This document shows, piece by piece, positions 25,963 through 59,761 of a DNA stretch of 61,702 bases. The notes beneath the pieces are model-generated. The model was given only the letters and a program-made list of their open reading frames with translations. It searched no databases and had not been told where the DNA came from. The stretch lies in assembly GCA_001662655.1 (NCBI GenBank), contig KV460281.1; one strand, written 5' to 3'. Every line of letters starts with the position of its first letter. Position 1 is the first letter of the stretch. The position numbers and the translations under genes are program-made. Source of the DNA: Pseudogymnoascus verrucosus (taxonomy: Eukaryota).

Positions 25963-27371
25963 TTTGAACTGCCTTTATCGAGATGGTGGTAGAGAAATTG
26001 AAGCATAGGACGAAACCCGCCTTTTGTATCCAGCTCAGATAACGACATTTCTCAACATCGGATTTATCTTTTCATGTCGGTGTAAATTCATTCTCTAATC
26101 GGACCTACTTTCCAAGTATTCCCTCCGCAACCTGTGACGATTGTGAAAACGTGCCCCTCAGCGAGTATGTTCCCGCTATCTCTTTGGCTGTCGTCGAGTT
26201 GCGAATCGTTGGGCAAGATCGTCCCTATGGGGAACGGAAAGTCACCTCCTGCGGAGGGGATCGCATGATCTCAGTCAAGCAGTCCACATAGCACTCCCCA
26301 GTCATTTGTTCAACAGACCGAGGTCATAGGGGCTTAGAAGACGTTGGAAAGAGCCAGTATTAAGACTCTTAACGGCGAAATAACCTTGACCGGGCTCTTG
26401 GCATCTATGCTCATCGCCGAGTACGTAGTCTCTCTACTGAGAGGCGTTTCCCTAGTATACGAACTGGCGGGAAGCCGGATCTGAGAAGTGCATATATGCC
26501 GTCTCTAAGAGCTGTAAGTAGGGAGTGTAGCTGTGCGGAGGGGTAAACTTCGGCTCAATCACCTCTCAGTCACCCGTCAGTCAGCTACTTTGCCCCAACT
26601 CGGCTTTTTCGTCCATACTTCTTCCGTGATGAAGCTTAACTACCTTGACCAACAGCCAACCAATCCTGGTATGTGGTGGGGTACAGCATTTTGGTGGGGT
26701 ACAGCGAAACCCCGCATTCTCCGCAACTACTAAAGTGCCTCCCCTCCTTCTCCATCCCCGATCTCGGGTTTCTTACATACAGAGTTATCTTTGTGCAGGC
26801 CTAGGAGCTTAATAATGTCACTGGGATCACGGAGATGGGCCGAAAGGGGAAGTCTTGACCAGCGCATAAGATGGGGTGTGATCGTCTCCCACTTGTGAAT
26901 TGCCGAAGTTTACCCTCAAGCCCCATAATTTGTTAATGTTTGCGAATACTCCCTAACAAGTGCCCTTCTCTCATCGTCCTTCTCCAGCGATTCTTGCTAC
27001 GTTGATAACACCGAGACCTCTACCTAACTCTAGAGCTTGATATAATGGGCTACTGCGTTCGAATGTTCACTCTGATTCAGGAGCGTATAGCTCTGCCGAC
27101 GTTTTCATCCCAAAGTTGATGGCCATGCCGAGGCTCCTATTTTTTTTAGGCGGGGTGGGTGAAGGGTCGATGCCACTGTCCATCTTCGTTAAATTGTCTA
27201 TCTAGGTCCGAGAAGTGGGGATGTAAAGATTGCAGCCTCTCCGCTTCCCCTCAGCGTTGTCAACCAACTACCGAACGCCGTAGAACGATATTTTCGTTTA
27301 TTTAGCGCATCCACATTGCGGAGACAGGCAAAAAAAAATTCAACCGCCATAATATGGAGATTGTACTGTAA

Positions 27372-27442
27372 TGCATCAGCCGTGAATCGAACACGGGGCC
27401 CATCGATGGCAACGATGGATTTTACCACTAAACCACTGATGC
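27372..27442 (-). tRNA. tRNA-Gly(GCC), intronless
   Basis: GCATCAG acceptor stem pairs with CTGATGC; D-loop TAGTGGTA; anticodon arm around GCC; TTCGATT T-loop; oligo-T terminator at ~27330-27338. Confidence 0.97.
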
Positions 27443-27981
27443 TTCTTGTTGTTGGCCATGGCGTATTGGCACATATGGTCTTTGGGCCCCGGATGCTCTA
27501 CACACACTCCGCTGCTTTTGCGATGCACCATTTTCGTCTTTTCGCACTTGCAAAAGCGGCTCCCCTTGCTGTTCCTCGAGCATGTGTGAGGTGTGCAGTG
27601 CAAGCAGAGTTCTACCCCTTCTCAGCCTAGCTGAGGGGCTGGGCGTCGTGCCTGTGAGCCTGCGATTCAGACCCCAGCTAACTCCAAACCTAGTTATGCT
27701 TTTAATCAGACTTCGGAATAGTATTACAACAGCGAAATTCCATAGCATTAACAATACAAAAGGATTGGAGTAGCCGTACAACAAAATTAATAGACAAAAT
27801 TTCAGGGACACATACACTAGCTACGTTAATTAGCAACTTGAACGTGGCATTAGATGTCAATGGGAGTATAAATGTCAGTCGGAAATTCCGATTAGAAAAC
27901 TCCGACCAACCGCACGTAATCCAAAAGAAGTATAGTGTAGGATGCTCTTAGGGTCGGATAAGCATAGATCTAACGCTAACA

Positions 27982-28049
27982 ACAGGATAACCCGTCATTT
28001 TGGGCGTAAAAACCGACCGTATCCCACGGGAATGTCCGTTTCCCCAACA
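27982..28049 (-). mobile_element. 5' fragment of a copia-like LTR (same family as 34482-34856)
   Basis: Reverse complement aligns to 34482-34550 with ~7 mismatches and 1 indel; begins TGTTGG. Confidence 0.7.
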
Positions 28050-28113
28050 CATATCAAATCAAAGGCACTAATTATGTCGTGAAAACCACCCTCCCAACTT
28101 AACAAGGACTAGG

Positions 28114-28436
28114 ATGCCGAGAGAAAGATATATGAGCATTTACAACGTGACAGCAGTTACCCAAGCATACTCAAATACTTTGGGAGGTGCCCCACTAAAT
28201 ATGAGCTGCTGCGACGTGGTCTGGTATTTGAATACCACCCACGTGGAACTCTTTTGGCTTCGTTTGAAAAACTGGATGGAATTGAGGTTTCTGAGAACGA
28301 TCGACAATGGTTTGCGGTCCCCTTTACCCTATTCGAGAAATTCGTATGCTGCAATACCGTCATGCTCTGACTTGTCTCTATTGGCTGGCCCTACCAGATT
28401 GTATCGGCAATAGACTTTATCCACCCATGCAGCGTC
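28114..28436 (+). pseudogene. Protein kinase-like gene fragment
   Basis: Frame not in the ORF track reads AERKIYEHL..YPSILKYFG..GLVFEYHPRGTL, then WPYQIVSAIDFIH; no catalytic loop follows. Confidence 0.55.
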
Positions 28437-28584
28437 AATCAGATAACTCATGCACTCATGGGCCATACATATCCCGCGCGAAGTGTCTCTTCTGGAAGTA
28501 ACACCACCGTGTGAAAACCCCCGGTCCAACAACTCCTGAGAGAGGCCAAGAACCCCAGATAAAGATCAACAATCTCTCGATTTC

Positions 28585-28755
28585 GATCCTCGCGCTCCGG
28601 TTCACGTTCCCGACGATTGCCTAGATGCGCTCCCCCCTGATCCTGCTCTCACTGAACTTGAGCAGAAGCGAGAGCAGTTGAAAGCTGGGACGTACAGAAT
28701 TCAGGGGACGAGCATCGAAGCAGAGGTTCGGCGACTTACCGCCGTAATCGGTAGT
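28585..28755 (+). pseudogene. Fragment resembling a DUF3435 ('FluG-domain' / Starship captain) tyrosine recombinase
   Basis: DPRAPVHVPDDCLDALPPDPALTELEQKREQLKAGTYRIQGTSIEAEVRRLTAVIGS matches from memory the post-catalytic segment of fungal DUF3435 proteins. Confidence 0.65.
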
Positions 28756-29196
28756 CCCTACCAATGTCGTAGTAGCACGGAAGGTTGAAATTCAATGTTC
28801 CGAGGTAGATTGGGATGTAATTTCCTTGAAGTGAGCGCAGTCGATTATAGACTTTCTCTCCTAAAGAATATCGTTCTCGTCCATCCCTTTAGCAACCAGA
28901 GTATACCCGTGTGCAGAGTGTCGGATTTTAAAGAGTGCTCCTCCAGCCCCTTTTAACGTAGAGCGGTTTACAGTCAGCTTGTTACTGCAGTCTCTTGCGA
29001 GCTGGATACGAATACAGCGGAGGAAGTTGCTTTTCTACATGTGTTAGTTTCCATGATATTTAAAGGTTGCGACGCCAGTCATCTAGAACGCCACCAAATA
29101 CTAAAGCAAACAGACACTTCTGAGTAAATAAATAAATAAAAGCTCTGCTCTGAGCTAGTCTAAAGACTATCAAGCAGTCTAGTATTCATGTCAGCT

Positions 29197-30917
29197 CTAA
29201 AGTCTATCCAATATCTCGAAACAGCATTGAAGCTGAGTTTGAGACACGCTCTCCAACCAAAGGAATTTTCGCAAGCAGTCCCTACACTGGTCTTGATTTT
29301 GCAGTTGGAGCGAGGCAGCTGTGCGCATGAAGTGGTCCATGTACCAAGGGCATAGCGGTCCTCCAATCGTTGCCGTGGAGCCCATGAACAGAACCCAGAG
29401 GAGTAGCTTAGATAGCATGCTCCATGAATAGGTGAGATCCGTTTCCTCTAGAGCCGCGCGGAGGCTTGCTCCGAAGGTAGTCAAGGTCGTTGACATCACA
29501 TGGGATTCTCCTAGCAGAACGGTCCTGATGAAGATCAAACATGAGATATGACAGCACGACAGAATTTGACAGTGATTAATAGTTGTGGTTGTGATTGTTA
29601 CCGGCGCAGAAAGTTTGCCCTCAATAGCGAGGCATTTTTCCTTGAACTGGGATGGCATTAAATTCAACTTGTCGTTCGACTGGGCTAGCCCAAGGCTCAC
29701 AATCAAGAATCGAAGCTCGCAAATTATGGAAATGAATTCGTCAAAGATGATAGATGTGTGCAACAAATCGGCGAATCCATGACCCATCAAGGCCATTTCA
29801 GTTCCAGGATAGATGTTTAGTGGAAGAGTATTCAGCACCGCTTGTGATCGCAGTAGCGTGAATTGCAACCTGCTACCAAAGCTACATGCACAGCAGAAGT
29901 CCGCCCTATTATCGAAGGTAAGTCAGCTTTTGTTAAAGCGTAGCTTGGTTGAACAGAGCAATATAATTATATACCAGAAAATAGTGTCTCGGACCACTGG
30001 GTTTAACCATGTCGCATCGAGGCCACCTCCCAAGGAGATCATTCGCCGCATCCCAGCCATGTGGATACGAGCTGCTTCATAATCCTTGTCGAATACCTAC
30101 CAAATCAGTCAACTAGTCTCCGTCATAGATAAAATAGCAACTCACAGCTTGGGTGAGGAGACCAAGCACAGCAGCCATTGTTATGTTGCTGATAGCTCTT
30201 GAGGAATCTTGATCCCGTAGCCGTTCATTCAAATGACTAATGCTCATTTGTGAATACTTTAATACTAGTGGACAAGCACTTTGTCGCCTCAGAGCCGCAA
30301 GCTGACCTGCTGACGAAGCCATTGCCCCGTATAATACAAGTGGATCCGATATTATCATTGGTAGCCATACATCCTTCATAGCGCTGTAACGTCCTAATGG
30401 TGCCAACGCGGGCTCAAGATTTGTCATGGCTGTGATCCTCTAATATCAGTCATCATAATACTAGGCTTCACTAGAAACAACTCATAATGTTTTGGCTAGA
30501 ATTGAGAAGAACATGAGCATGACTTACTATAATGCATGAGTAGTTTCATCTCCTGCTCGTGAAGGGGAACTGATAATGAATTAAATGGATCGCTACTACC
30601 AGCCCCGAGTCCTCTTAGTTGAATCTCGGACGTCTGCCTTTTTCGAGATTGTACTTTCTGTACAACTGCAGCAGTTTCATTGCGAAAGTTGAGATCGAGG
30701 TGATCCCGGTATTTCGGACAAACGTAGCCGGCCCTTAAGCATTGTTTGCAGCCCGAAATGTCTTGGCTACACTAATCGGATATGTTAGCGAGTGTTCTAG
30801 TACTGAGACACATGCCATTTCTTGTGTTAGGAATGAATATCATTAGGGGTGCCTAACCTTGATCTTTCGTTGACGGCAATTAGAGCAACCTTTGCTTGGC
30901 TTACCGCAAAATACCAT
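29197..30917 (-). CDS. Zn2Cys6 transcription factor
   Basis: MVFCGKPSKGCSNCRQRKIK/intron/CSQDISGCKQCLRAGYVCPKYRD; GAGSSDPF; C-terminal LLWVLFMG region. Confidence 0.85.
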
Positions 30918-31314
30918 GACGATTCGAGCAGCCGTTATTCGTAAGTAGTGTGTAGATCAATATGGCAGTTGGGACAACTGTTTTATAATAGTGCCTGATG
31001 ACCGACGTAAAAGCACGGGCCTAATGCCACGTGGCTACCTAAAACGGCAAATGGCACTAAGTTTCTATCAATAAGAAGCGAGCGCCTAGCCCTACACGGT
31101 ATGCATCACGTTAGCGCTTACTATGGGATGCTTATAAGTGATTATCTGATGTAAGAAGCAAGGGCTTGAATCCCCTAGACCGCTGTCACATGGGGGTCCA
31201 GGGGACTAGGGTACCATAATCCAAGCTAGTTATGTAGGGAGACAAAGCGATACCCTAGTAAGCCGACTATAATAAAGTCGATAAACTACCAGTCATTTAC
31301 TAAGCATTGCACTT

Positions 31315-32290
31315 TCATGATCCCTCGCTCAGCCTCCTCCACCTGTCTAGACTTTTGTCTGTAGATACCACGCTTTCCTTGATCAGCTTCCAAGCATCTT
31401 CGCCGACGGCAAGCCTTAGGGGTAAATCAGGGCTCCTGACAATATCGATAATTCTCTTCGCGACGCTTGGTGCAGTCGCCCAGTGTGCCCGTGCTTCCGG
31501 ACTTGCAAGGAATTTCTTTAATTGATTCGTTGGACAGCTGGTGTCAACATAATCAGGATGGGTCGCGGCATAGATGTAGTTGCTTCCTGCAAACTCAGTC
31601 TTGACACCCCCTAGTTCCAAAATGAGGTATTTGATGTTCCAGTCTGGATGGACTTCCAAGGACGCACACTCTGTCCAACCTTCGATGGCGAATTTGCTGG
31701 AATCAGAAAGAGGTTAGTTAGTGGTTTTCTCACAAAGGATGTTATTATGTATGAATAGTATCATTACCTTGCCGAATAAGACGAATTTCCTGCAAACCCA
31801 AATCGTCCTAGAAAAGAACTAATCTGAATGATCAACCCCCCTTGGCCCACCGGGTTGACCTGGCGAAAGGTTTTCATAGCCTCTAATGACATGTTGACCG
31901 TGCCCCAGTAGTTCGTTTCGAAGATCGCCCTCGCTTCTTCTTCTGTGATGCCTTCGGCATCGCCTAGAATACCATAGCCTGCATTGTTGACGACGATGTC
32001 AACATGACCAAAACGCGTAATAGCTTGTACAAAAGCAGCTTCAATACTTAGCCTACTAGTGATGTCAAGTTGTAATGTCAAGATAGATGGGGTGTCTGGA
32101 AGATCAGACAGTGTGGCGAGGTTTCTAGCTGTTGCTACGACGCAATGTCCAGATTCCAGAATCTGAGCGCTCAGGGCCGCGCCAATGCCTGAGGAGCAGC
32201 CTGATACTGGAACTCGCATTAAAAGACTATCCTCAATTTGATTAAGGAGAACTCACCCAGCCACACGAGCTTTTGACTTGCTTTCGCCAT
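31315..32290 (-). CDS. Short-chain dehydrogenase/reductase
   Basis: VSGCSSGIG, VVNNAGYG, YSASKFAIEGW (across an intron), PLRLAVG. Confidence 0.9.
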
Positions 32291-32926
32291 CACGATTGCA
32301 CCGTCGAGCTGATATGATGAGTTACTAGAGCAGCTATTAACCGTGATATTGAAAACGCTTAAAATATTCGGCGGGTGCTCATATAAAGTGCAGTCTTGTA
32401 TCCTTTATAGTTTTATATTCGTAGTAAGTAGCGCCTCATTGTGTTCATTTAAAAACGTAAAAGTCAGGTCGGGCTTATTTCTCATTAACTCGCATGGTCG
32501 GATTGGATACATCGCACTGGTATCCTTAAACGATGTTGCTCTAGTCTTTGCATTAATCTGCGGTTTCACAGTGGACTGCTGTTACTGCAAAAGCAAGAGC
32601 CTAACCGTACGTGGTATTAAATACGTTAGTGCCTGCTAGTTAAAAGCACAGCATGAGGCCGCATGGCAGTTGCCTCAAATAGCAAATAGACTAAACTTCT
32701 GTTATTACCATATAAATTGAAAGAATTCTATGCTCCATATGACTAGACTATTAACAACCTGTTAGGAAACCACGCCACCACTCTGGGTGGTTTTCCTTAA
32801 ATTTTGCATCTAACCCACGGTCGGGGGCGTGCAAAGATTTCGGACCCATGCAACCCAGACTGTCGGGGGCCTATGACGCACCCTGATTCTGCCTATCGTG
32901 CCATTCTATTCATAATTGTAAGGATC

Positions 32927-34008
32927 TCAATTTGCCGCGAACATTTCGTTGTTTGTTTCAGACCATGATGTCTCTCTTGGTACTGTGCTGTACTCAATTT
33001 TGTCGAAATTTCTCTGGAAGCCGAAGCCAGGGTGGAAAATGCAAAACGCGATGCTAGCGATTGTAACCATGCTACAAGAAATGTGTTAGGTACGGCCCTG
33101 CCTATAATGGTATGAGTAGATGACGACCTACCATGATTCGAGAATGATAAACAGGGTTTCGTTTCTCATAAGCGGATTGTCCCAGCCAGGACCCAGCTCA
33201 GCAACTCTGTAGACGCATCTTATAAATATTGATAATCCGAATACTAAGGCCATGATCAGGAAGCCTCGGAATGGCATTGAGCTGCGCATCAACTTGTATT
33301 TTGGATTCTTACGCTCTGGATAGCGACGAATACGGATGGCCAAATCTGCGCACATGCAACCAAATATGAACATGGTTACAACCTGCGTAATGAGGCCAAC
33401 CAACATGAGGCGATTGCCTAAGTTCATTGTAGAATCGGTTGTAGAAGACGACGCCAACCCACCACCAGCACCTTGCAATGATAGGGAAACCCAGTCGCAA
33501 AAGATAAAGAATTGAGAGTAGCGGATTGGTGCAATGCGTGAGAAGTCTCTTCCAAATATCATGATACTAAAAGAGTATGAGCATATATATAAGAGGTATT
33601 AAGGGCATGGTATTACATTCGCCCGAGACAGAGATATAGGGCCGCAGAATAGAATGCTGGCGCAGTTGTTAAACACACAACCTGCACCAAAAATCTGCAA
33701 AACTGCTCAGCAATCATACAAATCATCCTAATTATGAGAACATACGTGCTCAAGTTATATGGGTTCTTGTGCATGAATACGCGTCCCACATATCCGATGA
33801 CCTCAGTCATTGAGCCGAGAACCATACAGACCATAAAAGTCCATGTTCGATATCTGATGCCCCAAACAACATGCGCGATTAGAGACACAGCAAAGAGAGA
33901 GAGGAAAGCAATGCTCGCGGCCAAATTGGGTGCATAGCCTAGGGGAGACCCATCCGCTGGACAGTCAGGCCCAACGCCAATATTCGCGCAAGTAGTTAAC
34001 GACATCAT
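32927..34008 (-). CDS. RTA1-like membrane protein
   Basis: GYAPNLAA, EVIGYVGR, APAFYSAALY, FIFCDWVSLSLQGAGGGLA, IRCVYRVAEL, FHPG. Confidence 0.9.
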
Positions 34009-34481
34009 GAATGCGATTTACTAGAGACCGAGGTTGCAGGACCTATTGAACAAATTATGCTCAGTGACACGGTTGCGCAAAGTAAAAGAAAGGGAACGGG
34101 GATATATAACTAAGGAATGACAAAAAAAACAATACAACATTGTCGACAGGGAATATAGTTCCAGCCGCCCACGGCTCTGTATATACTGTAGGAGCTAGGC
34201 GCATGGATAATAATACGAAAACATGAATTGGCTGGCCAGGTCTTTATGAGCAAATCTACTCTGCCTAGAGAGCCTTGTCTAAGATTACTCAGGCGGGTCA
34301 CCTTCCTTCGTGCGCACCTTGTTTTAGTCTTTTTAGTAGCGTACGCGAGTATCTTCCGGGCAAATTGAGGAATGCGTGTTTGTAGAATAGAACTAACAAA
34401 TGTTACAGCGTTATCAGCTTTTTACTTTAGGGCAAATGATTAAGTATCTTTACCTATAAAATCAACTGCAGAGATACTTAC

Positions 34482-34856
34482 TGTTGGGGGAAACAAACAT
34501 CCCCGTGGAATACGGTCGGTTTTTACGTCCAAAATGACGGTTTATCCCGTGGGACCGTCCAGCTCCCAGCTGGGCTTGCGAGTGAGACAGTGGCGCCATT
34601 TGGAAGCCACTGATCCAAAGCCCAACTCAGCTCGGAAAGCCCAACTTGTCAGGGTTTTGGGGGGTTTCCCCCAGGACTACAAATATCGTACGTAGGCCCG
34701 TAGATTAGGTAGTAATCCAATTAACTTATATACTGTATTTACCGTGTTCTAGTGTTTGAAGCCTTCTGTTCTGTTGCGCCAAAGTAAAGAGTTCCGGCCA
34801 CCGGAGACACGGTACAATTCGTGTGTGGTCCCCGTATTCCGGTCCTCCCACCAACA
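34482..34856 (+). mobile_element. Solo LTR (copia-like), 375 bp
   Basis: TGTTGG...CCAACA termini; perfect 5-bp TSD CTTAC (34477-34481 and 34857-34861); related copies at 27982 and 43728. Confidence 0.85.
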
Positions 34857-34973
34857 CTTACGCTTAAATTGCTTACGTCACGTGACCAGTTTACTAGACC
34901 TATTCAATGGCCTAGGTATAAATCTAATTCTAGCGCATGCAATGGCGTGTTTGGTATGGAGAAGTAATCAGTG

Positions 34974-35184
34974 CCTAACCTTACATGGTATGCATCACGT
35001 AGAAATGGAAAAAAATGAAGACCTAACCCTATATGGTATGTATCACGTAGAAATGGAAAAACAATTAAGGCCTAACCCTGTATAGTATGCATCCTATACA
35101 GCCTAACTATACATGGTATATTGCGGTTGTGTAAAAAATATAGGGAACGATCGGAGCCTAGCCCAATGTGGTATGCGTCACGTA
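34974..35184. repeat. Degenerate tandem array of a CCTARCCYTAYATGGTATGCATCACGT motif
   Basis: About 5 copies, the first three at ~49-bp spacing; an additional copy at 31085-31111. Confidence 0.7.
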
Positions 35185-35444
35185 CAATCTAATTTGGACA
35201 AGGCTTCTACATAAAGAAAATGCAGGACATGACATGTGCTGTGTACAAATTAGACCGAGATAAACGGATAGAAAAGAATAGTATAATTAGTTCGAGACCG
35301 GGATGGGATTGCGTGGATCCATCTACATAAGACAACCCTACATGTCTTGTCAATCGCGCTGTCATTATATCAAGACGGGATACCTCTTTCTCAAATACAT
35401 ATCCTACTCTGTCAAGAGCAGCTCTTCTCTGTGCTGTCAAATCC

Positions 35445-36384
35445 ATGATGCTCGATTCACGTGGTGACCTCGCAGCTGTCGTCTTGGCTCTCTGGTGTCC
35501 ATTATTTCTTGTTGCAATCTGGGTTGTGAGACGCCATGGCTTCAGTCGCCAAGCTGGATGGATCTTCATCGTCTTCCTGGCTGCCATTCGCATCACTGGT
35601 TCAAGCATGGAGTTGGCCAGCGAGAGTACGCCTCAGAACTGGCTCATTGTGGCTTCTGCCACTCTTCAGTCGGTTGGACTGTCGCCACTGCTGTTCGCGC
35701 TCCTAGGCATTCTTTCTCAAGTGTACGTTGATATATCCATTAGTCTCTTCCCCTCCAGCTGCAAAGCTGTCATAATTATGCGGCGAATGCCTTTCCATGA
35801 ACATGGCTTAGGTTTACACAGTAGCTAATTTTGAATTGTGCTTCAGGTTCAAAGCTTCTCATCTAGGCCAGAGAGTGATAATAATTGGACTGAACACACT
35901 ACAATTGATAATCCTTACTGGATTCATCCTGGCCATTGTTGGTGGAGTAAAGGCATACGTACCTAACTCTTCGGCTTCGGACATCAGCTTGGGCAAAGTC
36001 TTGATCAAAGTTGCTGTCGGCCTTTTCGTAGCCTCATTCGTTGCCCAAGTCTACCTAATTGTCAAGAGTCGATATACAGCAGCTTTGTCCGGTACGCACA
36101 AAGCAACCGAGATCCGCCTTCTCGCATTCGCCGCTGCAGTCAGTGCCCCTTTTATAGCAACCCGAGTAGCCTACAGCGCAGTTGGGACGTTCTCGAACGA
36201 CTCGCCACAGTTCAACCCGGTTGCTGGTAATGTGGTTATATTGGCGTGTATGGCGCTATTAATGGAGCTCATCGCTGCTTGCATCTACCTCGCCATAGGA
36301 TGCTACATAGATCCTTCCGACGGATTGGGAACAGTAGAAGACTCAAGAAAGATGCCTCAATTTAGTAGCCTAGCAGTGGTCTAA
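35445..36384 (+). CDS. Multi-pass fungal membrane protein (DUF7702-like)
   Basis: RHGFSRQAGWIF, SVGLSPLL, PFIATRVAYS, MALLME; intron 35723-35846. Confidence 0.75.
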
Positions 36385-36465
36385 TCGGTTACTCTGCACG
36401 CATTATCTACAGAATTATAAATCTTAGCCTAATCTTATACTAGAGTTTTATAACGTATTTCACAT

Positions 36466-36966
36466 ACTGCCACTGCCACTGCCACTGTTAATGACACCAA
36501 CGTTGACAGATGCCCGTCCTATGCCCAGTCAGACTGGTGCGGTTTCACTACTGCTCCGCCGACAGGCGTCTTCCCGGCCTATTCGACATACGTCAGCCAG
36601 GTGTACTCATGGTGGATGGAGCATAGCTCCGCGCTCGTCTACATGAGGGACAATTGCCCTAATACTTGGGAGCATGGCCGGTGGCGTGATGGAGACGGCG
36701 AGCGGTGGATTGAAGACACCTTTGTCGTTGCTGCATGCTATGCCGAAGCGCTTACGACTGCTGAGCTGGCGTCGACGGGGCTGGCGGCTACGGGGGGGTT
36801 GAGCACGACGAAGCTAGAGGCTACGAGTCTCGCGAAAACGGCTGTGAGAAGCGCGACCCCGACATCGACGGACGCGCCGAGTGGTGGGATGGGACGCTTG
36901 GGCGCGGAGATGTGGATGGCTGCGCTTGCGGGGATCGCTGCTGTTGCGATAGGCTGCGAGTGGTAG
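36466..36966 (+). pseudogene. 5'-truncated Cys-containing, GPI-anchor-like cell-surface protein
   Basis: CPSYAQSDWCGF..YSTYVSQVYSWW..CPNTW..CY, Ser/Thr stalk, hydrophobic tail; no start or signal peptide, preceded by a TA-rich stretch. Confidence 0.5.
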
Positions 36967-37593
36967 GGAGTCTGCATATTTGTGGGAGAGGTGCTGTATT
37001 GTATAGTATAGTTAGATACCCTAATTGTTGCGTGATGTATGCGTTGCTACTCCAGATGCCTACGGTCCACAAGTACAAGGCAGGCGTTAAGGGATACACA
37101 TAAAGGGGTCAGTCACCCACATACTCACGTCCTCATTATAGAATAATACAACTGAAAATTAGATCCGCCGCTGGCTCATTGTATTCATCAACTCTCCGTT
37201 CTTGCTATTCTCATCTCGTCATACAATCCCCATCCCCTCATCCCCGCCGTGAGGCACCTCTCCAGCTGCTTCCTTCAGAAAATCTAAAGCTTAACTACTG
37301 GCTCCATGTACTCTTGCTCCTGTTGTTGTCCGCTGGTATGCATTACAATTATGGGCGCCCTACAATTATCCGCTAGGTTGGTCTAGCGCCTGATAGTCCC
37401 AAACGCTAACTGATGATGCAGTTTACTCCCATTACCCTTCTCTGCTTTATCAATATAATATATAGCTATATGCATATGTTGAAGTATGTAGGCAAAATAA
37501 ATCACATGCTATAAGATTAGTACAACTTGGTTAATATACGAATCCGGCTACCTATCTCCTATTACCTCTCTCTGATATATAATTTTTCTTCGT

Positions 37594-39992
37594 TTACTTC
37601 CAACTTGTTGAGACCAGTTGAGTACACATTCCATCTGTACCCGCTACTGTATCCACCCTATTGCTTCCACTTTCCCACGTCACTGCTCCTAAGCTACTAA
37701 CCATAATAAACTTATACTCAAAGTACGTTCCGGGTGCGAAGTTAATAGTTGCTGACCACAAAGGATTCGAACTCGTGTATTTGCTTGCACTCAACGGTAC
37801 TCCGTTCGCTGTATTCCAGCTCCCGAGGGCAGCGATTGACCCTACGATCTTGATATTGGTGCCATATATAGTTGTAACCAACTTATTAAATGTGACTGCA
37901 ACCGAAGAGCAACCTGTGGGCGCAGTGGTGCTTGTAGTCGGCGCAGTGGTGCTTGTCGTCGACGCAGTGGTGCTTGTCGTCGGCACAGTGGTGCTTGTCG
38001 TCGGCACAGTGGTGCTTGTAGTCGGCACAGTGGTGCTTGTCCTTCCTGAAGTCGTTGCCGTCGCTACAGTAGAGAACGTGGTCGATACTGTCGCACTAGT
38101 AGACGACACTACACAAAGCAGGGACTCGGTATCAGCACAGTTCTCACGACGGCTCCATTACGACGATTGTAGAGGGGTGGGAAGACAAACCAATCAACGC
38201 GCTGCAGATACCGCTCCCCGACAAGTTCGCCGAGGGGTAAAGCACGCGCGGCAAACCACCCGACATAGTGATAACGACATTCCCTGACGAGTCCGCAGTA
38301 TACGCCGGGCAGCTTAAAACCTCTATAACTGCCTGGTTAGCTGTGAATCCTGTATTCGCAAAGTTCAACGTCAGTGTATATGCAGAACTACTAGCGCCCT
38401 TATTAGTGAAAACGCCGACGGTCTGCGACCCAGCAGCCCCCTTCTTTAACAGCACCATCTGGGTATTCAGCTGGGTTGCCACAGCCACATACGTCACCTA
38501 TGAGCTGTCCCTGGCTATTGCAAAGTTGCGAATTTGGTTCACCTGCTTCACAAACCCGTACTGTACGCTGCCGGTATTGTATCCACTCAGCCAGGTGGCT
38601 TCGCGGTCGGACGGCACGGCGCCGCCTCTGTACCCTTGTTCTTGACCAGCGTTGATGATGGGAATACCATCCATGAGCATAGTGAAGGCAATGGCATTCT
38701 TCTGAAGTGACAAATCCGAGGTCAACGAGGGAAATCGTGCAACGTCGTGATTTTCAAGGAAAGATCCTAAGAGCGTGGTGTCGCTGCACGAGAGTTTCAT
38801 GGTGTTGATGCCGTTTACTAGGTTCGAAATGGAGCCTGAGGTGGATTGGAAACCCTGCGTTATCCAATAGTATCTACGTCACTATTAGTAATGAAATGGC
38901 TTCGTGGTAAGTACGTTGGAGAGTCAAACGCTGGGAAATTCATCAGTCCTGTCATAGACGTTTGGTAGGGACAAACATAGGCTGGATCGCCATTGAAGAC
39001 CTCGCCTAGGACGTGCATGCCACCAGCGGCAGCCTGGAAGGACGGCCAGAAGTTATTGTTGACTTGCTGTACGGAGTCGATGCGTAGGCCATCGATGGAA
39101 TAGTCTGACACAAGCTGCATAATCCACGCATAATCCACGCATTGAAGATGGATTGGACATCTGAATCTTCCGTGCGAAGATCGGGGAGGGACACGGTATT
39201 ACTGCCCTCCCAGCAAGTCTTGATGCTGTTTATGTCACTGTAGTTTATGAGGCAGAAAGGATGGAAGTAAGATTGCTGTAGATTTATTAACTCCTGTCTC
39301 TATGAGGCAAACTTGGGTGCACAATAGCGTACCGAGTTGAAAGGGCTAAGGGTGCTGTAATCGACACAGGCTCCACAGCCAGCGTAAGCCATGTGGTTCG
39401 TCACAACATCGACCATAAGGTACTACTACTGTCAGCTGTCATAAAAAATACAGCGCGTCTAGAGCAAGAGCGTGAGTCACCAGCCAACCGCTACCTGTGA
39501 CAGCGCTGTCATTGCTAGGAAACTTACCATCCCTCTTGCATGGAGTGCCGCCGAAAGGTCCTTGAGATCCTGCACGGTTCCAAATTTTTGATTCAGCTGG
39601 TTAATATCCGCGCCCAGTAGCCATGGTACGAAGAGCCATCGCTTGTCTGTGCCGAAATCTGCTTAACAACTGGGGAGATCCAGACCTGTATTCTATATTA
39701 ACTTTGTTCACTCGAAAATCCTAAACGGGAGGGAGTAGCACACAGCTGTAAAACCCATTCCCTGAATGTAATCTAGGTGGTTCACAATGCCTCTCCATGA
39801 CCCGCCACAATAAGCCTGAGCCGCAGTATTACAGGCCGCAGTTGTAGAACCATCGGTCCGCGCAAAGCGGTCCGTTAGGACCTGATAGATGGACTGGCTG
39901 CGCCACTGTGCAGGACTGTGCGCTTGAACTGCTGCTAGGTCAAAGACAGAAAGGGCGGCGAGGGTCAGAGGAGCGAGGTTGCGGAAACGCAT
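37594..39992 (-). pseudogene. Alpha-amylase (GH13) with CBM20, pseudogene
   Basis: [36 protein letters not shown]20 LGSWN..WESGSNR; -1 frameshift at ~39610, 11-bp duplication at 39118-39139, in-frame TAG at 38498-38500. Confidence 0.9.
37920..38040. repeat. 21-bp coding tandem repeat (TTSTT[VA][PS]) in the amylase linker
   Basis: About 6 units of (g/a)cagtggtgcttgt(a/c)gtcg(g/a)c. Confidence 0.85.
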
Positions 39993-41599
39993 GGTCGTGT
40001 AAGCACTTTGTAGAATCGGAGTTATATGCCCTGTGCTGGGTTTTGGCGTTTTGGCGTCTTGGCAAATAAGCAAAATTGAGATGCAAGTTCTCGGGAGCCA
40101 TGACCTACGAGGGGAGTTGAGTGCTTTTTATACATGCTCTATTACACTATACCCACATGTGGTATATCTTTGCCCTACGTACTCAAAATTTTGCTGCTTT
40201 GTTTTAGAATAAATACTGTCCACAATATACTATGTTTGCTAGTTGGGATTCATGAGCAGAGCCTAGGAAGGGGGGTAATAATTGTTTTGGTGGTGAATTG
40301 AGAGTGTCGCCCTTCATTGACCACTTCTCAATTTAATGTAGAGTATATTCAGATCGGCCCGTACAGAGTTCTGGACTATCCCTAGGGCATGAGTGGATTG
40401 ATTTAAAGAGGCAGAGTAATTTATCTTCAGTATCGCGAAATATTAGCTCCGAAGCTGCAAATTCGGTCCTTTTACAGTTTCTCTCCGGCTGCCCCAACTT
40501 CTCCATTTTCCAACCCGCCATGTGATGGTATGCGGCACATCATACGAGGAAAATGGCCCGTGCAAAACAGGGGTTGTCCCCGCTCCCCCATTCTTCCCGC
40601 TGTCGTTAATTAAGTCTGGTTATCCTGGTCACTTGAATGGCAACCACTGTGTAGCTCAGCAATAATGGGGTTAACCCCTCCGACTCCCTCCCCCGCAAAC
40701 CTTGTCTCGTTCTTATGCACCTTAAGGCCGTTAGTAAGGACAACAGCACTAAATACGAGAACAGGGCACTAGATCGACATCCGTTCACAAAAAAGCATCT
40801 GTTGAGCCTTTCCCATTTAAACGGTAAATTAAGAGTCTAGAACTGCGTCGCATTGACGGTCACACCCATCTCAATGCTTTTGAATATCGTAAGGTTAAAA
40901 GGTTACCACCAAAGGCGTGCCGTGCGGAAATGATTTTTGTCTGGTTTAATATCCCGATGGACGGCATTAAGTTGCACCGTACTGCCGATGGCGTGCCGAA
41001 AGAGTTCCTTGGCTGTATAGCTAGACATTCCGGAGTCAATCGTGTGCCACAACCTTAGCCGGCGTATCTAGGGCTGGGTCCTAATACGGACAGCGACCTG
41101 TGCCATGTTAGGGGAACACGTGTGCCATAGATGTGAAAAATGTTATTGAACGGTGGACCCTTTACAACAGTACTCTGTATCCTACGGAGAGATATTTAAT
41201 TGTGCCGAAGCCACATAGGTGACCTCAAAAGGCCAAAGTGGCGCCAGTTAGAGCTGCTTCCTTTGTGCGGCGTCACTAGATCATTTCCAAAGGCCCGATC
41301 AGATGATGGCATGGCAACTAGTGAGGGTAGGTTTACGACTGTCGCTCAGCAAGTGAGACTAGACATTACCTTGGCATATGATATTGTGAAGTTTTTTTTT
41401 GCTCTCTCTACTATCAGTTCTCTGTTGTTGGTCCTACTTTGCGGCTACTTTGCGCCTCCGCCGGTCTCTGTGTCGAGGCATCTAAGACTCTAAATTTCTA
41501 TATAATCGCCATGAATTCCCGCTTTATCTCCCTTTTTCATCCTCACCATCATTCTTACCATTCTTTCGTCCTTGTCTAAAAGTTGGCCTTTACTCCATC

Positions 41600-43705
<2,106 letters not shown>

Positions 43706-43727
43706 ATTGCCTAACAAATGTACCTAG

Positions 43728-44106
43728 TGTTAGGGCTAACCCGGTTGCTTACGGTCTCTTCCCGCTTTTCGGTGGTTCGCAAAAGCGTCGCCTTTGGCGT
43801 TTGGCTATGCTCCCCAGTTGGCTCGGGTTCGGTTGGTGGCTTTGGGCAGAATGCAGCCACCGAATTCTATCACATCTGAAACTGAGAGCCTTCAGCTCGT
43901 CAAGGTTTCTGGGCCCCCCGAAACCTATATTATACAATACGTACGTAGGCCCGTAGTTAGTGTAGAAATTCAATCGATTCATTTATTCTATATAGTATAG
44001 TCTACTGTTGATCTTTCTGCACGTTGCACCAAGAGTAAGAAGTTCCGGCCACAGGAGATACTCGCAATTTGTGTGTGATCCCTGTATTCCGGTGCTCTCT
44101 CCAACA
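43728..44106 (+). mobile_element. Diverged solo LTR of the 34482 family
   Basis: TGTTAG...CCAACA, 379 bp; shares cgtacgtaggcccgtag and agttccggccac..gtattccggt blocks with 34482-34856; no TSD. Confidence 0.7.
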
Positions 44107-44950
44107 GAAATTGATGGGGCGGAGGAAGAGCCTGAAACAGGGGCTGTCCACATTCTTGGCACTGCTGTGATAAGTGCCACACTTGCAATGCTTGACTTGT
44201 ACTAGTATACTCTAGAGTACGATGATATACTTTGCACCCTGCTCACTGCCAAAGTATGCTCGATAAACTGATTTTATTGTTCATACAATAAAACAAACTA
44301 AAGGTAGGCGTGTCCGGATTGTATTGTTGTCACGAAAGTTGACCGTAGTATGTGCATAGAAAGGCTATGGCTATGACCCTCCTTGGAACGCTTCGCGAAG
44401 ACAAACGACAAACCTTCGTTTGTCTTCACGTGGGTGCATAACAGGTAGGTACATACTGTACGGGGTGACGAAAGTAGTGATGTGCTGATGTACTAGTGAA
44501 TCCTAACCAGACCGGTGTGCTCGCTCCCGACTAGTTTCCGTGAGGCTGAGAGTCTCCTCCTTGGCATCGAGAGGCAGTGGACGCGCTGGATGTTGTCCGT
44601 TAAGTCAGACAGAAGATGAACAAACTAGCATTGGGAGTCCATTAATAACTGATTCAATTCTCATATTACTTTACGAATACTTGTGCTGCTCGGAAGACTA
44701 CTGTACTGTGCTGTACTGTACAGATCGGTATTGTATTCTACTGAGAGGCGGTGCTTCCATTCCAGCTGCTTTAACTTGCCTTACTTGGTGTGTGCCAGGG
44801 TGATAGATTCGTTCGGCTTGGAGGGTACGGGTGATTACGCCACAATGTTGGTTGGTAACTGCGGCTATTTACCAAATCGTAGACTCTTCATAATGGAGCA
44901 TTTGCCAACTTTAAAAGCCAGCAAGTACGCTCTAATCTCCGTCTCCAAAA

Positions 44951-46790
44951 ATGGCTTCTTCTTAGTTCACGTACAATATTACACACCCTTATCCTTTCAG
45001 ATGGTTTACCCCCTTGGTTGTGATATGCAGCATCCTTGCCTTGCTATTAGTCACAATCCTGAATCTGGTTACAGCTGGCTACGTTTTAAGGTAGGTGTAT
45101 TACTGTCTGGAGAGCACCATACTGACTGAAGTTTAGCACAGAATCTTCGCAGAATCTCAATGCGACCATTGCTGCTAATGGCCTTTGGTTCCGAACCTGG
45201 CCATCATATTTTTCTAGCAAAGTATTAGCCTGATTCTGTTCGGAAAACTAGCCCTTTCATACTAAAGCTGGTTTTTAGATGCAACCATCTTGCGAACCTG
45301 TTACTCTACCAGTTGGATCTCGTAGGTTACTCTCTTCTCTACACTGAGTAAGTGAGCTAACGAGAGGAACAAGGTTTTTTTACAAACCATACTGGTCTGA
45401 CTTACACATTAGTTAGCGTGACAGACCCCCCAACAGGTGCTGTTGGTGGTGCTATGTCACCTTCACTAAGCTACTTGAATCAACCCCTTGAGAATTGTGA
45501 GGTCAGCTTGGTTCAGATAGAAGTGTCTAGCGCAGATAGAACTGCATGGCAGTTTGCAACAACGCCATGGGGATCAGCCTCGCGAGTGGGTTTCCTCATT
45601 TATCACTCTACCAAGCTCTTTGTAACACCCGGGTTCTAGGTATTCATTACTTGCGGCGTATTTGGCCCAAATGGGTTCACATCACTTAACCTTACTGTCG
45701 AGTATGATCTTCTACCAACAAGCATGGCAGGTTTCAATCAAGGGACCTTCAAGTTTCTGCAATCGGATAAGCAAAATGGTGCTGCTTTGTGGTGGGGAGA
45801 ATCGCTACTGTAAGCTGCCTATCTCAGTACTATATTTCTACTTGTTAATCGTCAGGTCAATATATTGGAATGAAGTTTCCTATACGATGTAGAGTATCCG
45901 AGATGAAGAAAGCAAGAAGGGCAAAGGGATCTTAAGGAAAGGCTCGATTGGTACTTTCTCCATTCTCCTTGCAATATTCGGATCCCACCATAACTGAACA
46001 TCCTTGACCCCTAGCACTACCCAGCGCGACATCACCCAGCTGGACTTTTTTGATCTCAACTATCGTTTCATCAAGGACAGCACCTACGAATTGTCTTACA
46101 CCCAGGCGGGAATAAAAACGACATTAAGGATTCGAGCGCTAAAAATGAGTACCCAAATATCTGGCTTCTCGCTGACAATCTCGGGAAATCCCTCTTCTCG
46201 GTCGCTCTCTTAGACCTGGGACAAAAAGCATCCAGCATCCTTACAGATACAGCAGTTTTTCAGAAGTATACAGAAGAATTCCCTGAACTCATATCCTTGC
46301 CCGGGATGAATGTCGCAACGGGTCCCGCAAAAGCCAGCTATGAAAATCTAAAGAACAGTACGGGGCCACTGGAAACCTCACCAGCTATCATCTCAGCGAA
46401 GTACTTATGTCAAGTGCCACGGAGGAGGGCGATGGGAACGCTCATTATGGCACTCATTCTAGCGAATCTAGTCTTGCTGCGCGCGTCTTGGGCGCTGCTT
46501 ACATTCTTCACTTCGTTCTATGTGGCACAATTTGATCCGGCTGGTACGTGACTTCCACAATATCGCTACGACTAAAGACAAATGGATCTAACGGGGTTGT
46601 TTGCTATAGCGCATCATTGTGTAGGGTGTATTAAACAAACTATAAGTTCCCCAGTAAGTAGAAGAAAACCAGTTGCAGGAAAGTTTGAACAAACGACAAG
46701 GGGGATCTATGAGCCAGTAAGAGGGAGGACATAGAGCATAGGAGAGCAGGTTAGACGTAGAACGAAATGGCATGATATTTAATAGCCGGG
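44951..46790 (+). pseudogene. Fungal transmembrane hypothetical protein pseudogene
   Basis: MASS*FTYNITHPYPFRWFTPLVV..NLVTAGY; later LLWWGESLL and AKYLCQVPRRR..LILANLV; several in-frame TAG stops; 3' end approximate. Confidence 0.65.
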
Positions 46791-47026
46791 TAGAATGATC
46801 AATTTGACACGCACCAAGTGAAGCAGCCGGATAGGGCCACACTAACGTAGAGTACTGTAGTTAGAATAGCATAGTCGACTCGATTGATTAAACTAAAACA
46901 TAAACCAGGTGTCCCCGTAATAGAACCTACCTGTATTTGAGGGCCAGAAGTTGCTGCTCTTTGAGATTCACAGAAAGGGAAGTTGAGGAACATAAACCAA
47001 CATTACAGGGACAAAAAAAAATTATA

Positions 47027-47061
47027 GCAACGATGGATTTATACCACTAAGCCACTGCTGC
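47027..47061 (-). pseudogene. tRNA-Gly 5'-half relic with homologous flanks
   Basis: gcaacgatggatttataccactaagccactgctgc vs 27409-27442; flank similarity runs ~47000-47250 vs ~27310-27640. Confidence 0.8.
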
Positions 47062-47563
47062 TAGATTGTTGTTAGCCAATCGTGTATTGCCGTATATGGA
47101 CTTTGGAGCACGTTTCCATGATGTTGATCGCAGCATTCACAACTCGCTGCTTTTGCCATGCGCCATTTTCATGTTTTCGCCACTTGCAAAAGCAGCTCCC
47201 CTTAGGCGTTGGTCGAAGTGGGCATGCAACTAGGGTTCTGCCCATCATTAGAGGGCTGAGAACCGAAAGTAACTACTATATGGTGTAGGGTGTTTTGTTT
47301 TAGCCCTCCTACACTCTGCCTAGCCTAAGGAGGAGCCAGAATAGGGGTTGAATGAACAGAAGATGGCTAATTGCGCTAGTTCTAAGGTCACCGCTACAAA
47401 TGGACCGTCGGCATTATAATTATCTGCTACGTTTGTCGGACGCTATTTGTAGTAATACTTTAGTAGCTCACTCGCCTGTGTGGCACAGTCGCATGTGAAA
47501 TACGTTATAGAATTTGTTCTAGAACTAATAAACGATAGAACAGTTACTCTCTAATTAGTCGCT

Positions 47564-53272: not shown

Positions 53273-53753
53273 TGTTACGGCTGAAACATGCAACCTATAT
53301 GCCGCAAGATAGAATAATAAGGTAAAATAGCTTGTAGCTAATTAGCAGCAGGAAATAGACGTAGAGATTGTAGGTAGCTTAGTTAATGAGGGCACCTTTA
53401 GGAAAAGGTACCTTTCTTAGAAGGTACCTAGCAAAAGAAAGGTGCCTATTAGGAAAGGCACCTATGTAGAGCAAGGTGCCTCCTTAGAAGGGCACCTATG
53501 GGAATCGGTACCTGCAATAAGTGTAGCACCTCTTATAGGACACACACGTGATTAGATTAGTAGGAATAGTGAGNNNNNNNNNNNNNNNNNNNNNNNNNNN
53601 NNNNNNNNNNNNNNNNNNNNNNNNNNNNNNNNNNNNNNNNNNNNNNNNNNNTGTTTTACAAAAGCCTTTATGTCTGATCCCCTACCTCCTCTATTAAGTA
53701 AACTAACGTAACGAAACCTCTATAAGTCTTATAGTTTAAGACCTAGCGTTACA
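53273..53753 (+). repeat. 5' LTR (contains assembly gap)
   Basis: TG...CA; matches the 3' LTR apart from transitions. Confidence 0.93.
53574..53651. other. Assembly gap (78 N)
   Basis: N run; the equivalent 3' LTR segment is 126 bp (60063-60188). Confidence 0.98.
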
Positions 53754-59648: not shown

Positions 59649-59761
59649 AGTTGTGGCCTTACCTACCCTACGAATATAGGGGACCTACTACGCTTAAGTA
59701 GGCTAGTAGATTCTTAGTTAGCATTAGCCTATAGGACTAGGCCTTAAGGGAGGGGACCTAG

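What the first reader, a model, noticed from the sequence alone, without database searches (positions are those of the whole stretch)
27310..47250. ~19.5 kb accessory block bracketed by an intact tRNA-Gly and a broken direct-repeat copy, with a captain-like recombinase relic at its left end
Seen: tRNA-Gly (27372-27442) and ~200 bp of upstream flank recur in the same orientation at 47027-47250, and that copy stops in the anticodon loop. About 1.1 kb inside the intact tRNA is a DUF3435-like fragment, followed by cargo-type genes (TF, SDR, RTA1, amylases). Known: Starships carry a DUF3435 tyrosine recombinase at their 5' end, and prokaryotic tyrosine integrases often recombine at tRNA anticodon loops. 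Inference: this may be a derelict tRNA-anchored fungal island. Caveat: the downstream flank (catt..gac..A9tt) also seems to be present at ~47000-47023, which fits a whole-locus duplication followed by an internal deletion equally well or better.
Basis: partly seen in the sequence, partly recalled or inferred. Interest (0 to 1): 0.75.

Follow-up and report, generated by a model that had tools for sequence, protein, structure and literature searches.

The report
Duplicated tRNA-Gly locus with decayed copy
A fungal glycine tRNA gene and its surroundings occur twice about 19.6 kb apart, the second copy being a broken leftover of a whole duplicated gene unit rather than the scar of a mobile island, so the feature is most likely ordinary.

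Summary
The window is from Pseudogymnoascus sp.. It holds one tRNA, Gly-GCC at 27372-27442 (-). Its 5' half and about 180-200 bp of upstream flank recur in the same orientation at 47024-47243 (75.6% over 180 columns, E 1e-24).

The distal copy also keeps the terminator run. The only two A>=9 runs on the + strand of the 61.7-kb window are 27330-27338 and 47013-47021, each with the same few flanking bases. So the distal copy descends from a whole tRNA transcription unit that later lost 65-68 nt. It is not a half-site made by a crossover in the anticodon loop.

The DUF3435 relic is genuine but tiny: 63 codons at 28567-28755, profile positions about 264-330 of 418. There is no other DUF3435 piece in the window. 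It sits among unidentifiable fragments.

The 19.4 kb between the copies carries apparently intact ordinary genes, with no Starship hallmark genes, no compositional shift and no RIP.

Synteny and empty sites could not be tested, because no fungal genomes were reachable. The island reading is therefore disfavoured but not excluded.

The parts
27372..27442 (-). Intact tRNA-Gly(GCC), 71 nt
   Evidence: ARAGORN; Rfam RF00005, 57.1 bits
27330..27338 (-). T9 run on the tRNA strand, 31 nt past the tRNA 3' end; presumed Pol III terminator
   Evidence: Sequence; one of only two A>=9 runs on the + strand of the window. The terminator role is inferred from general knowledge of Pol III.
27324..27617 (-). 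Left (complete) copy of the repeated tRNA-Gly unit: terminator run, 3' trailer, tRNA, about 175 nt of upstream flank
   Evidence: Self-BLAST; alignments and shuffle tests
27341..27405 (-). Segment with no counterpart in the distal copy (tRNA positions 38-71 plus 31 nt of trailer), i.e. the 65-nt deletion
   Evidence: Gapped alignment; coordinates read
47005..47243 (-). Right (decayed) copy: terminator run 47013-47021, junction, tRNA positions 1-37 at 47024-47063, upstream flank to about 47243
   Evidence: Not recognised as a tRNA by ARAGORN or Rfam at E<=10.
28567..28755 (+). DUF3435-derived relic, 63 codons, matching Pfam profile positions about 264-330 of 418, truncated on both sides
   Evidence: Pfam E 0.032; 64 homologues, 36 of 45 scanned carry DUF3435; tblastn of all 64 hits maps only to 28458-28851
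28100..29050 (.). Patch of short ORF fragments on both strands around the relic. They look kinase-like by eye only; identity is unconfirmed.
   Evidence: ORFs. No Pfam hit at E<=10, no PDB hit, only a weak Atlas lead (PF07714 in 16% of one rank-15 cluster).
29197..30956 (-). Zn2Cys6 / Fungal_trans_2 transcription factor gene
   Evidence: Pfam PF11951 E 2e-5; Cys-rich motif split over two exons, read by eye
31315..32252 (-). Short-chain dehydrogenase gene
   Evidence: Pfam adh_short E 1.3e-28
33128..34017 (-). RTA1-like membrane protein gene
   Evidence: Pfam RTA1 E 1.3e-40
35331..36966 (+). DUF7702 gene (35331-36384) and DUF7735 gene (36454-36966)
   Evidence: Pfam E 2e-25 and 6e-32
37594..40127 (-). 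GH13 alpha-amylase with domain C, Thr/Ser-rich repeat linker and CBM20
   Evidence: Pfam; translation; 21-nt tandem repeat
41600..43702 (+). GH15 glucoamylase with CBM20, three exons, apparently intact
   Evidence: Pfam; 99% to named Pseudogymnoascus proteins; exon map
45361..46551 (+). ORFs of an uncharacterised Ascomycota-type protein next to the decayed copy
   Evidence: ORFs; no Pfam hit; Atlas nearest clusters are unnamed Ascomycota proteins
23206..25962 (-). Left flank: GH3 beta-glucosidase gene
   Evidence: Pfam; 92-95% to four Pseudogymnoascus clusters; exon map
47567..48702 (-). Right flank: GRE2-like NAD(P)-dependent reductase gene
   Evidence: 97% to a Pseudogymnoascus sp. WSF 3629 protein; exon map

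Best explanation
The two ends of the 'block' are paralogous copies of one complete tRNA-Gly(GCC) transcription unit: about 175-200 nt of upstream flank, the gene, a 31-nt trailer and the T9 terminator. The unit was duplicated as a whole in an ancestor of this Pseudogymnoascus strain.

The left copy stayed functional. The right copy lost 65-68 nt, from the 3' edge of the anticodon loop to just before the terminator. That removed the B-box half of the gene, and the copy then drifted to about 76-85% identity. It is a dead tRNA pseudogene, not an attachment-site half.

The 19.4 kb in between is ordinary chromosomal sequence. It holds apparently intact genes (TF, SDR, RTA1, DUF7702, DUF7735 and a starch-degrading amylase/glucoamylase pair). 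Just upstream of the live tRNA there is a roughly 1-kb patch of pseudogene debris that includes a 63-codon piece of a DUF3435 recombinase gene.

Shown: the repeat, its extent, the deletion, the identity of the relic and of the genes. Inferred: that the duplication was of the whole unit, that the relic is unrelated to the origin of the repeat, and that the block is not itself a mobile unit.
For: Both copies share sequence on both sides of the break. These are the upstream flank plus tRNA positions 1-37 (E 1e-24; 135 of 159 aligned bases) and ACAGG..C-A9-TT (2 of 1000 shuffles reach its score). The window's only two A>=9 runs on the + strand lie exactly at these two places.

No T4+ run lies between the intact tRNA and its T9, so T9 is part of the transcription unit.

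Substitutions between the copies show no RIP-type bias (11 transitions, 13 transversions). RIP has clearly acted nearby (52-61.7 kb: TpA/ApT 1.96). The divergence therefore looks like slow ordinary decay.

The DUF3435 piece is 63 codons, and no other piece was found when all 64 homologues were run by tblastn against the window.

No DUF3723, ferric reductase, patatin or NLR domains were found in 51 ORFs of the block and its near flanks or in 44 of the 48 ORFs of at least 100 aa listed for the rest of the window.

Block composition matches the flanks (GC 0.469 against 0.494 and 0.501). The glucoamylase maps full length at 99% in its last two exons to an annotated relative.
Against: How the duplication arose is unknown. 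tblastx finds no other shared coding sequence between the two halves, so a simple large tandem duplication leaves no other trace.

Apart from the A-run and about 8 neighbouring bases, the downstream similarity is not significant, so the 'whole unit' inference rests on a short stretch.

A DUF3435 relic pointing inward about 1.1 kb from the tRNA is what a decayed captain could look like.

The glucoamylase is a second paralogue (63% to another copy in sp. 24MN13). Among named Pseudogymnoascus clusters it has 99% matches in two, 82% in one and at most 66% in the others, plus an unnamed 93% cluster. That is compatible with an accessory region.

Two further repeat pairs subdivide the block, showing rearrangement history that I cannot explain.

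Synteny in relatives was not testable.
Confidence: 0.6

Rival explanations
1. The 19.4-kb block really is an insertion, but not a site-specific one. DNA was inserted next to the tRNA-Gly unit by break repair, or after a small tandem duplication. This left a long (~300 bp) target duplication comprising the complete tRNA unit on both sides, and one copy later decayed.
For: The topology fits: unique flank, copy, block, copy, unique flank, with both copies covering the same content from terminator to upstream flank. The glucoamylase has a patchy identity distribution among relatives. A RIP-degraded AT-rich region lies 5 kb away, suggesting a dynamic neighbourhood.
Against: There is no independent sign that the block is foreign: composition matches the flanks and the genes are ordinary. 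The repeat could equally have been two neighbouring paralogues from the start. No empty site has been seen.
Confidence: 0.17
2. The two copies belong to a dispersed family of tRNA-Gly(GCC) loci that share conserved flanks genome-wide, for example through a conserved upstream hairpin element. Their being 19.6 kb apart is incidental and they delimit nothing.
For: The best-conserved part of the flank is a hairpin-forming stretch 60-125 nt upstream, present in both copies. This could be a family-wide element.
Against: It cannot be checked without the genome. The window holds only this one tRNA. Hairpin stability is unremarkable in 3 of the 4 folds (z -0.25, -0.90, -1.14; only one fold at -4.46).
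Confidence: 0.12
3. One reading: a derelict cargo-carrying element of the Starship or tyrosine-recombinase kind that integrated at tRNA-Gly. The DUF3435 piece is the remains of its captain at the 5' end, and the half-tRNA marks the far junction.
For: The relic is truly DUF3435-derived. It is on the + strand pointing into the block, 1.1 kb from the tRNA. The break in the distal copy falls at the anticodon loop. Starships are known to target another small Pol III gene, 5S rDNA, at 23% of 222 curated sites (PMC11162782, section 23).
Against: The terminator run and neighbouring bases are present beside the half-tRNA, which a crossover does not explain. The repeats are 239-294 bp and 76-85% identical, against reported Starship direct repeats of at most 6-16 bp. 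Only 63 codons of DUF3435 remain; the sequence where the N-terminal ~260 residues should lie holds other ORF fragments and gave no tblastn match. No hallmark accessory genes were found. In the Starship papers I read (passages of PMC9156397; passages and section 23 of PMC11162782), tRNA genes are mentioned only as targets of bacterial elements and as something screened for at insertion sites.
Confidence: 0.08

Closest known systems
tRNA pseudogenes and paralogues made by duplication of a whole Pol III transcription unit
   Same: The two copies share the upstream flank, the gene body and the terminator run. The copy has lost its 3' half and is no longer detected as a tRNA.
   Different: Only two copies are visible and the mode of duplication is unknown. 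The 65-68-nt deletion happens to start at the anticodon loop.
Starship elements (DUF3435 'captain' tyrosine recombinase plus cargo) and their 'Derelict' remnants (PMC9156397, passages; PMC11162782, passages and section 23)
   Same: A DUF3435-derived sequence lies near one end and points inward. The block contains metabolic, cargo-like genes. The element family is known to favour a small Pol III gene (5S rDNA).
   Different: Only a 63-codon internal fragment remains. There are no short direct repeats, no DUF3723/FRE/PLP/NLR genes and no demonstrated mobility. At 19 kb the block is small; my recollection that described elements run to tens or hundreds of kb comes from no call.
Bacterial genomic islands and ICEs integrated at tRNA genes by tyrosine integrases (cited in PMC9156397, passage; details recalled)
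   Same: An intact tRNA lies at one end and a partial tRNA copy at the other, in direct orientation, with the break at the anticodon loop.
   Different: In those systems the repeat is confined to the segment from the crossover to one gene end. Here similarity extends about 200 nt beyond the gene on one side and resumes at the terminator on the other. There is no intact integrase, and the host is a eukaryote.
Pol III-targeted retroelements such as Ty3/Ty1 of yeast that accumulate upstream of tRNA genes (recalled, no call)
   Same: Mobile-element debris sits within about 0.7-1.6 kb upstream of a tRNA gene.
   Different: No retroelement domains were detected in the debris. The identifiable piece comes from a tyrosine recombinase gene.

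Membership tests
Starship (captain-led cargo element) | Full-length DUF3435 tyrosine recombinase encoded at the 5' end | tested here: not met
   Only 28567-28755 (63 codons, profile positions ~264-330 of 418) matches. tblastn of 64 homologues finds nothing else in the window. In homologues P0007 and P0002 the RRG and AYIN motifs, which I take from recall to be recombinase catalytic motifs, lie upstream of the part retained here.
Starship (captain-led cargo element) | Short direct repeats (a few bp, longest reported 6-16 bp) and sometimes TIRs at the element boundaries | tested here: not met
   The bracketing repeats are 239-294 bp at 76-85% identity against the lengths given in PMC11162782. 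A 68-nt inverted pair at 27982-28049 / 34482-34550 exists, but I saw no flanking target duplication by eye.
Starship (captain-led cargo element) | Presence/absence polymorphism with an empty site in a relative | not testable with these tools
The named hits for GH3, glucoamylase and reductase came from different strains or from short contigs, so locus tags gave no adjacency.
Starship (captain-led cargo element) | Conserved accessory genes (DUF3723, FRE, PLP, NLR) often present | tested here: not met
   None were found among 51 ORFs of 23.2-51.9 kb or 44 of the 48 ORFs of at least 100 aa listed for the rest of the window. Short exons could have been missed.
tRNA-integrating island (tyrosine integrase, att-type repeats) | Repeat limited to the tRNA segment on one side of the crossover, with unrelated sequence on the other side | tested here: not met
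   Similarity lies on both sides of the break: flank plus 5' half, and ACAGG..C-A9-TT.
tRNA-integrating island (tyrosine integrase, att-type repeats) | Integrase gene next to the tRNA junction | tested here: not met
   Only a 63-codon fragment lies 1.1 kb away.
tRNA pseudogene from duplication of the whole transcription unit | Copy shares 5' flank, gene body and terminator with a functional paralogue | tested here: met
   The terminator part rests on about 19 nt.
tRNA pseudogene from duplication of the whole transcription unit | Copy has lost features needed for function | tested here: met
   Positions 38-71 are missing, which includes the T-arm/B-box region (B-box placement recalled). The copy is not detected by ARAGORN or Rfam at E<=10.
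tRNA-derived SINE | Similarity starts at the tRNA 5' end and continues into a 3' body; the upstream flank is not shared | tested here: not met
   The shared part is the upstream flank plus the 5' half.

The most novel reading that the evidence does not exclude
The block, or its 6.5-kb sub-block bounded by the 68-nt inverted repeats at 27982-28049 and 34482-34550, carries the DUF3435 relic near its left arm. It could be the eroded remnant of a tyrosine-recombinase cargo element that used a tRNA-Gly locus as its landing site. That would be a first tRNA-associated lineage of Starship-like elements in a Leotiomycete.
Probability: 0.07. Interest if true: 0.65.

Novelty: new member of a known kind. 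Interest (0 to 1): 0.2.

Why it matters
If the island reading were right, it would extend the target range of fungal cargo-carrying elements from 5S rDNA to tRNA genes and tighten the parallel with bacterial genomic islands.

The evidence here instead points to an ordinary tRNA pseudogene plus a scrap of a recombinase gene. The main value is as a caution. An intact tRNA paired with a half-tRNA repeat is not by itself an integration scar. Checking for the terminator and for similarity on both sides of the break separates the two cases.

Tried and rejected
**Empty-site and synteny test by locus tags.** I searched the GH3 flank, the glucoamylase and the reductase flank, hoping to find the same strain in all three lists.
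- The named representatives came from different strains: 05NY08, VKM F-3775, VKM F-4515 and 23342-1-I1 for GH3; 24MN13, VKM F-103 and VKM F-3775 for the glucoamylase; WSF 3629 for the reductase.
- In VKM F-3775 the two genes lie on 6.8-kb and 16.8-kb contigs.
- No adjacency could be read.

**Large tandem duplication.** tblastx of 20-37 kb against 37-53.5 kb found only the non-coding repeat at 34.7/44.0 kb. I rejected this as a visible explanation.

**RIP as the cause of divergence.** Rejected: 11 transitions against 13 transversions.

**5S rDNA or other RNA genes as targets.** Rfam at gathering score found only the tRNA. Low-threshold scans of both ends gave only chance-level rows.

**Identity of the fragments beside the relic.** There was no Pfam hit at E<=10, no PDB hit, and only a weak Atlas lead. 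The 'kinase-like' label is by eye only.

**ORFs at 44.5-46.9 kb.** No Pfam family. The Atlas gave only unnamed Ascomycota clusters.

**Literature.**
- Starship + captain + tRNA + target site: 5 papers.
- DUF3435 + tRNA gene: 5 papers.
- Pseudogymnoascus + Starship: 1 review, seen as a listing only.
- Five locus tags: 0 papers.
- A general search on tRNA gene duplication in fungi gave nothing usable (listing only).
- In Leushkin et al. 2015 (PMC4438637, passages) I found nothing about this locus.

Full report
**What the window is.** The best named matches of three genes are Pseudogymnoascus proteins.
- The glucoamylase exon is 99% identical to proteins of sp. 24MN13 and VKM F-103.
- The GH3 exon is 92-95% identical to four Pseudogymnoascus clusters.
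- The reductase exon is 97% identical to a WSF 3629 protein.

So this is a Leotiomycete fungus. The right end of the window (52-61.7 kb) is AT-rich (GC 0.358) with strong RIP-type dinucleotide indices: TpA/ApT 1.96 and (CpA+TpG)/(ApC+GpT) 0.53. The block and both flanks are not affected.

**The observation.** ARAGORN finds one tRNA in the window, Gly(GCC) at 27372-27442 on the minus strand. Rfam at gathering score finds the same gene and nothing else, in particular no 5S rDNA.

A self-BLAST of the window pairs 27406-27567 with 47024-47203 in direct orientation at 75.6% over 180 columns, E 1.2e-24. Leaving gap columns out:
- the tRNA part matches at 32 of 34 positions;
- the proximal upstream flank matches at 102 of 124;
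- the two together match at 135 of 159.

A weaker stretch extends the match to 27617/47243; 21 of 1000 shuffles score as well. The distal copy covers tRNA positions 1-37, through the last base of the anticodon loop, with the third anticodon base changed. With only two matching bases after that mismatch, the breakpoint is uncertain within positions 35-37.

**What lies after the break.** On the tRNA strand the intact gene is followed by a 31-nt trailer without any T4 run, then by T9, which I take as the Pol III terminator from general knowledge. In the distal copy the half-tRNA is followed, after two bases, by the same T9.
- In plus-strand terms, both places read ACAGG, then one or three bases ending in C, then A9 and TT (27324-27340 and 47005-47023). 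This scores 27, and 2 of 1000 shuffles reach that.
- More tellingly, the whole 61.7-kb window has only two runs of nine or more A on the plus strand, and they are exactly these two.
- Beyond this short stretch, downstream similarity is not detectable. With the run removed, 1738 of 1996 random window pieces score as well. Further downstream, 883 of 1000 shuffles do.

The simplest reading is that the distal copy once held the entire unit and later lost the equivalent of 27341-27405 (65 nt, or up to 68 given the breakpoint uncertainty).

**Why this argues against an integration scar.** In site-specific integration at a tRNA, the two junctions share only the segment around the crossover. The arms on either side come from different parents. 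I rely here on established knowledge of bacterial islands, which Gluck-Thaler et al. also invoke (PMC9156397, passage). In this window the two copies are alike on both sides of the putative crossover.

Starship boundaries do not fit either. The starfish paper describes direct repeats of a few bases, the longest being 6-16 bp in the 5S-rDNA-targeting families (PMC11162782, passages and section 23). The repeats here are 239 and 294 bp long and well diverged.

The differences between the copies show no transition excess (11 against 13). RIP therefore did not inflate the divergence, and the duplication is probably old.

**The recombinase relic.**
- The ORF 28540-28788 (+) gives only a sub-threshold Pfam match to DUF3435 (E 0.032, 13.6 bits, profile 264-306 of 418).
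- A full HMMER scan of 1.84 billion representatives gives 64 matches at E<=1e-3 and 10 at E<=1e-10.
- I scanned 45 of the 64 against Pfam. 36 carry DUF3435 at E<=1e-3 (32 above the curated cut-off), 6 have no family and 3 have unrelated families. So the fragment is truly DUF3435-derived.
- It is very small. tblastn of all 64 proteins against the window gives matches only within 28458-28851, with a 63-codon core at 28567-28755.
- In the longer homologues, the motifs that I recall as the recombinase's second arginine and tyrosine regions (RRG, AYIN) lie upstream of the retained part.
- The sequence where the N-terminal ~260 residues should lie (about 27.8-28.5 kb) holds other short ORFs. They resemble kinase N-lobes by eye but match nothing in Pfam or PDB and give only a weak Atlas lead.
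- 49 of the 64 homologues are under 300 aa, and the longest DUF3435-bearing one is 469 aa. The fragment's nearest relatives in the library are thus themselves mostly pieces.

**The block.** Between the inner edges of the repeats (27618-47004, 19,387 bp) lie:
- the debris patch;
- a Zn2Cys6/Fungal_trans_2 factor, an SDR and an RTA1-like protein;
- DUF7702 and DUF7735 proteins;
- a GH13 alpha-amylase with CBM20 and a GH15 glucoamylase with CBM20;
- ORFs of an uncharacterised Ascomycota-type protein.

The glucoamylase maps over its full length to an annotated relative.

None of the Starship-associated accessory families named in PMC9156397 (DUF3723, FRE, PLP, NLR; passages) was found. I scanned 51 ORFs of the block and its near flanks and 44 of the 48 ORFs of at least 100 aa listed for the rest of the window. 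GC content is 0.469 in the block against 0.494 and 0.501 in the flanks. tblastx shows no other coding similarity between the left and right halves. A large tandem duplication has therefore left no trace apart from the tRNA unit.

**Hints in the other direction.**
- The glucoamylase is a second paralogue, 63% identical to another copy in sp. 24MN13. Its close matches among named Pseudogymnoascus clusters are few: 99%, 99%, 82%, then at most 66%.
- The reductase just outside the block has its nearest non-genus matches in Botryosphaeriales (70-75%) rather than in Leotiomycetes (about 63%).
- Two more repeat pairs subdivide the block. A 68-nt inverted pair (27982-28049 / 34482-34550, 88%) encloses the debris, TF, SDR and RTA1. 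A ~200-nt direct pair (about 34645-34858 / 43899-44108, 76-79%) encloses DUF7702 through the glucoamylase.

These show a history of local rearrangement, or dispersed short repeats, that I cannot resolve.

**What could not be done.**
- The three protein searches did not return the same strain for flank and block genes on long contigs.

As a result, the empty-site test, genome-wide tRNA-Gly flank comparison and a survey of intact captains near tRNA genes all remain open.

**Verdict.** The repeat is real and non-random. It is best explained as a decayed paralogue of a complete tRNA-Gly transcription unit (confidence about 0.6). The rivals are a non-site-specific insertion with a long target duplication (0.17), a dispersed tRNA-Gly family with shared flanks (0.12) and a derelict tRNA-anchored recombinase element (0.08). 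The feature is ordinary in kind, so interest is low unless comparative data reveal an empty site.

Noticed in passing
window 52000-61702: AT-rich region (GC 0.358) with strong RIP-type indices (TpA/ApT 1.96; (CpA+TpG)/(ApC+GpT) 0.53). It holds an internal repeat 53270-53573 ~ 59759-60062 (92%) and 53652-53751 ~ 60189-60288 (93%), and an N run at 53574-53651. Only one ORF of 100 aa or more. Probably degraded transposons.
   Followed up: partly
window 27982-28049 and 34482-34550: A 68-nt inverted repeat (88%) encloses 6.5 kb containing the debris patch with the DUF3435 relic, the TF, the SDR and RTA1. I saw no target-site duplication by eye. These could be TIR-like arms or two copies of a short dispersed repeat.
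   Followed up: partly
window 34645-34858 and 43899-44108: A direct repeat of about 200 nt (76-79%) brackets DUF7702, DUF7735, the alpha-amylase and the glucoamylase. The second copy starts about 200 nt after the glucoamylase stop codon.
   Followed up: partly
window 34974-35196 and 31085-31124: A roughly 40-48-nt motif is repeated 2.5 times in tandem in the RTA1/DUF7702 intergenic region, with looser copies at 35157 and 31085. A CACGTG palindrome lies nearby at about 34880. These are possibly regulatory sites.
   Followed up: no
window 27512-27560 and 47147-47197: The best-conserved part of the tRNA upstream flank can form a hairpin with an 11-bp stem in both copies. One base differs between the copies and keeps pairing (G-U against A-U). 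Stability is unremarkable except for the + strand of the left copy (z -4.46).
   Followed up: partly
window 47567-48702: For the GRE2-like reductase on the right flank, the nearest matches outside the genus are Botryosphaeriales (Neofusicoccum 75%, Saccharata 73%, Diplodia 70%), ahead of Leotiomycetes (about 63-65%). This could mean paralogy or transfer.
   Followed up: no
window 37919-38041: A 21-nt tandem repeat (5.9 copies, 94% matches) encodes a Thr/Ser-rich seven-residue repeat linker between domain C and the CBM20 of the alpha-amylase. This is an ordinary glycosylated-linker type.
   Followed up: yes
window 41600-43702: The glucoamylase is a second paralogue, 63% identical to another glucoamylase of Pseudogymnoascus sp. 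24MN13. Near-identical matches occur in only two named relatives' clusters and an 82% match in one more.
   Followed up: partly
window 48922-49016 and 49690-49777; 7671-7762: A short inverted repeat (78% over 95 nt) lies between the reductase and the GMC oxidoreductase. A 92-nt palindromic self-match lies at 7671-7762.
   Followed up: no
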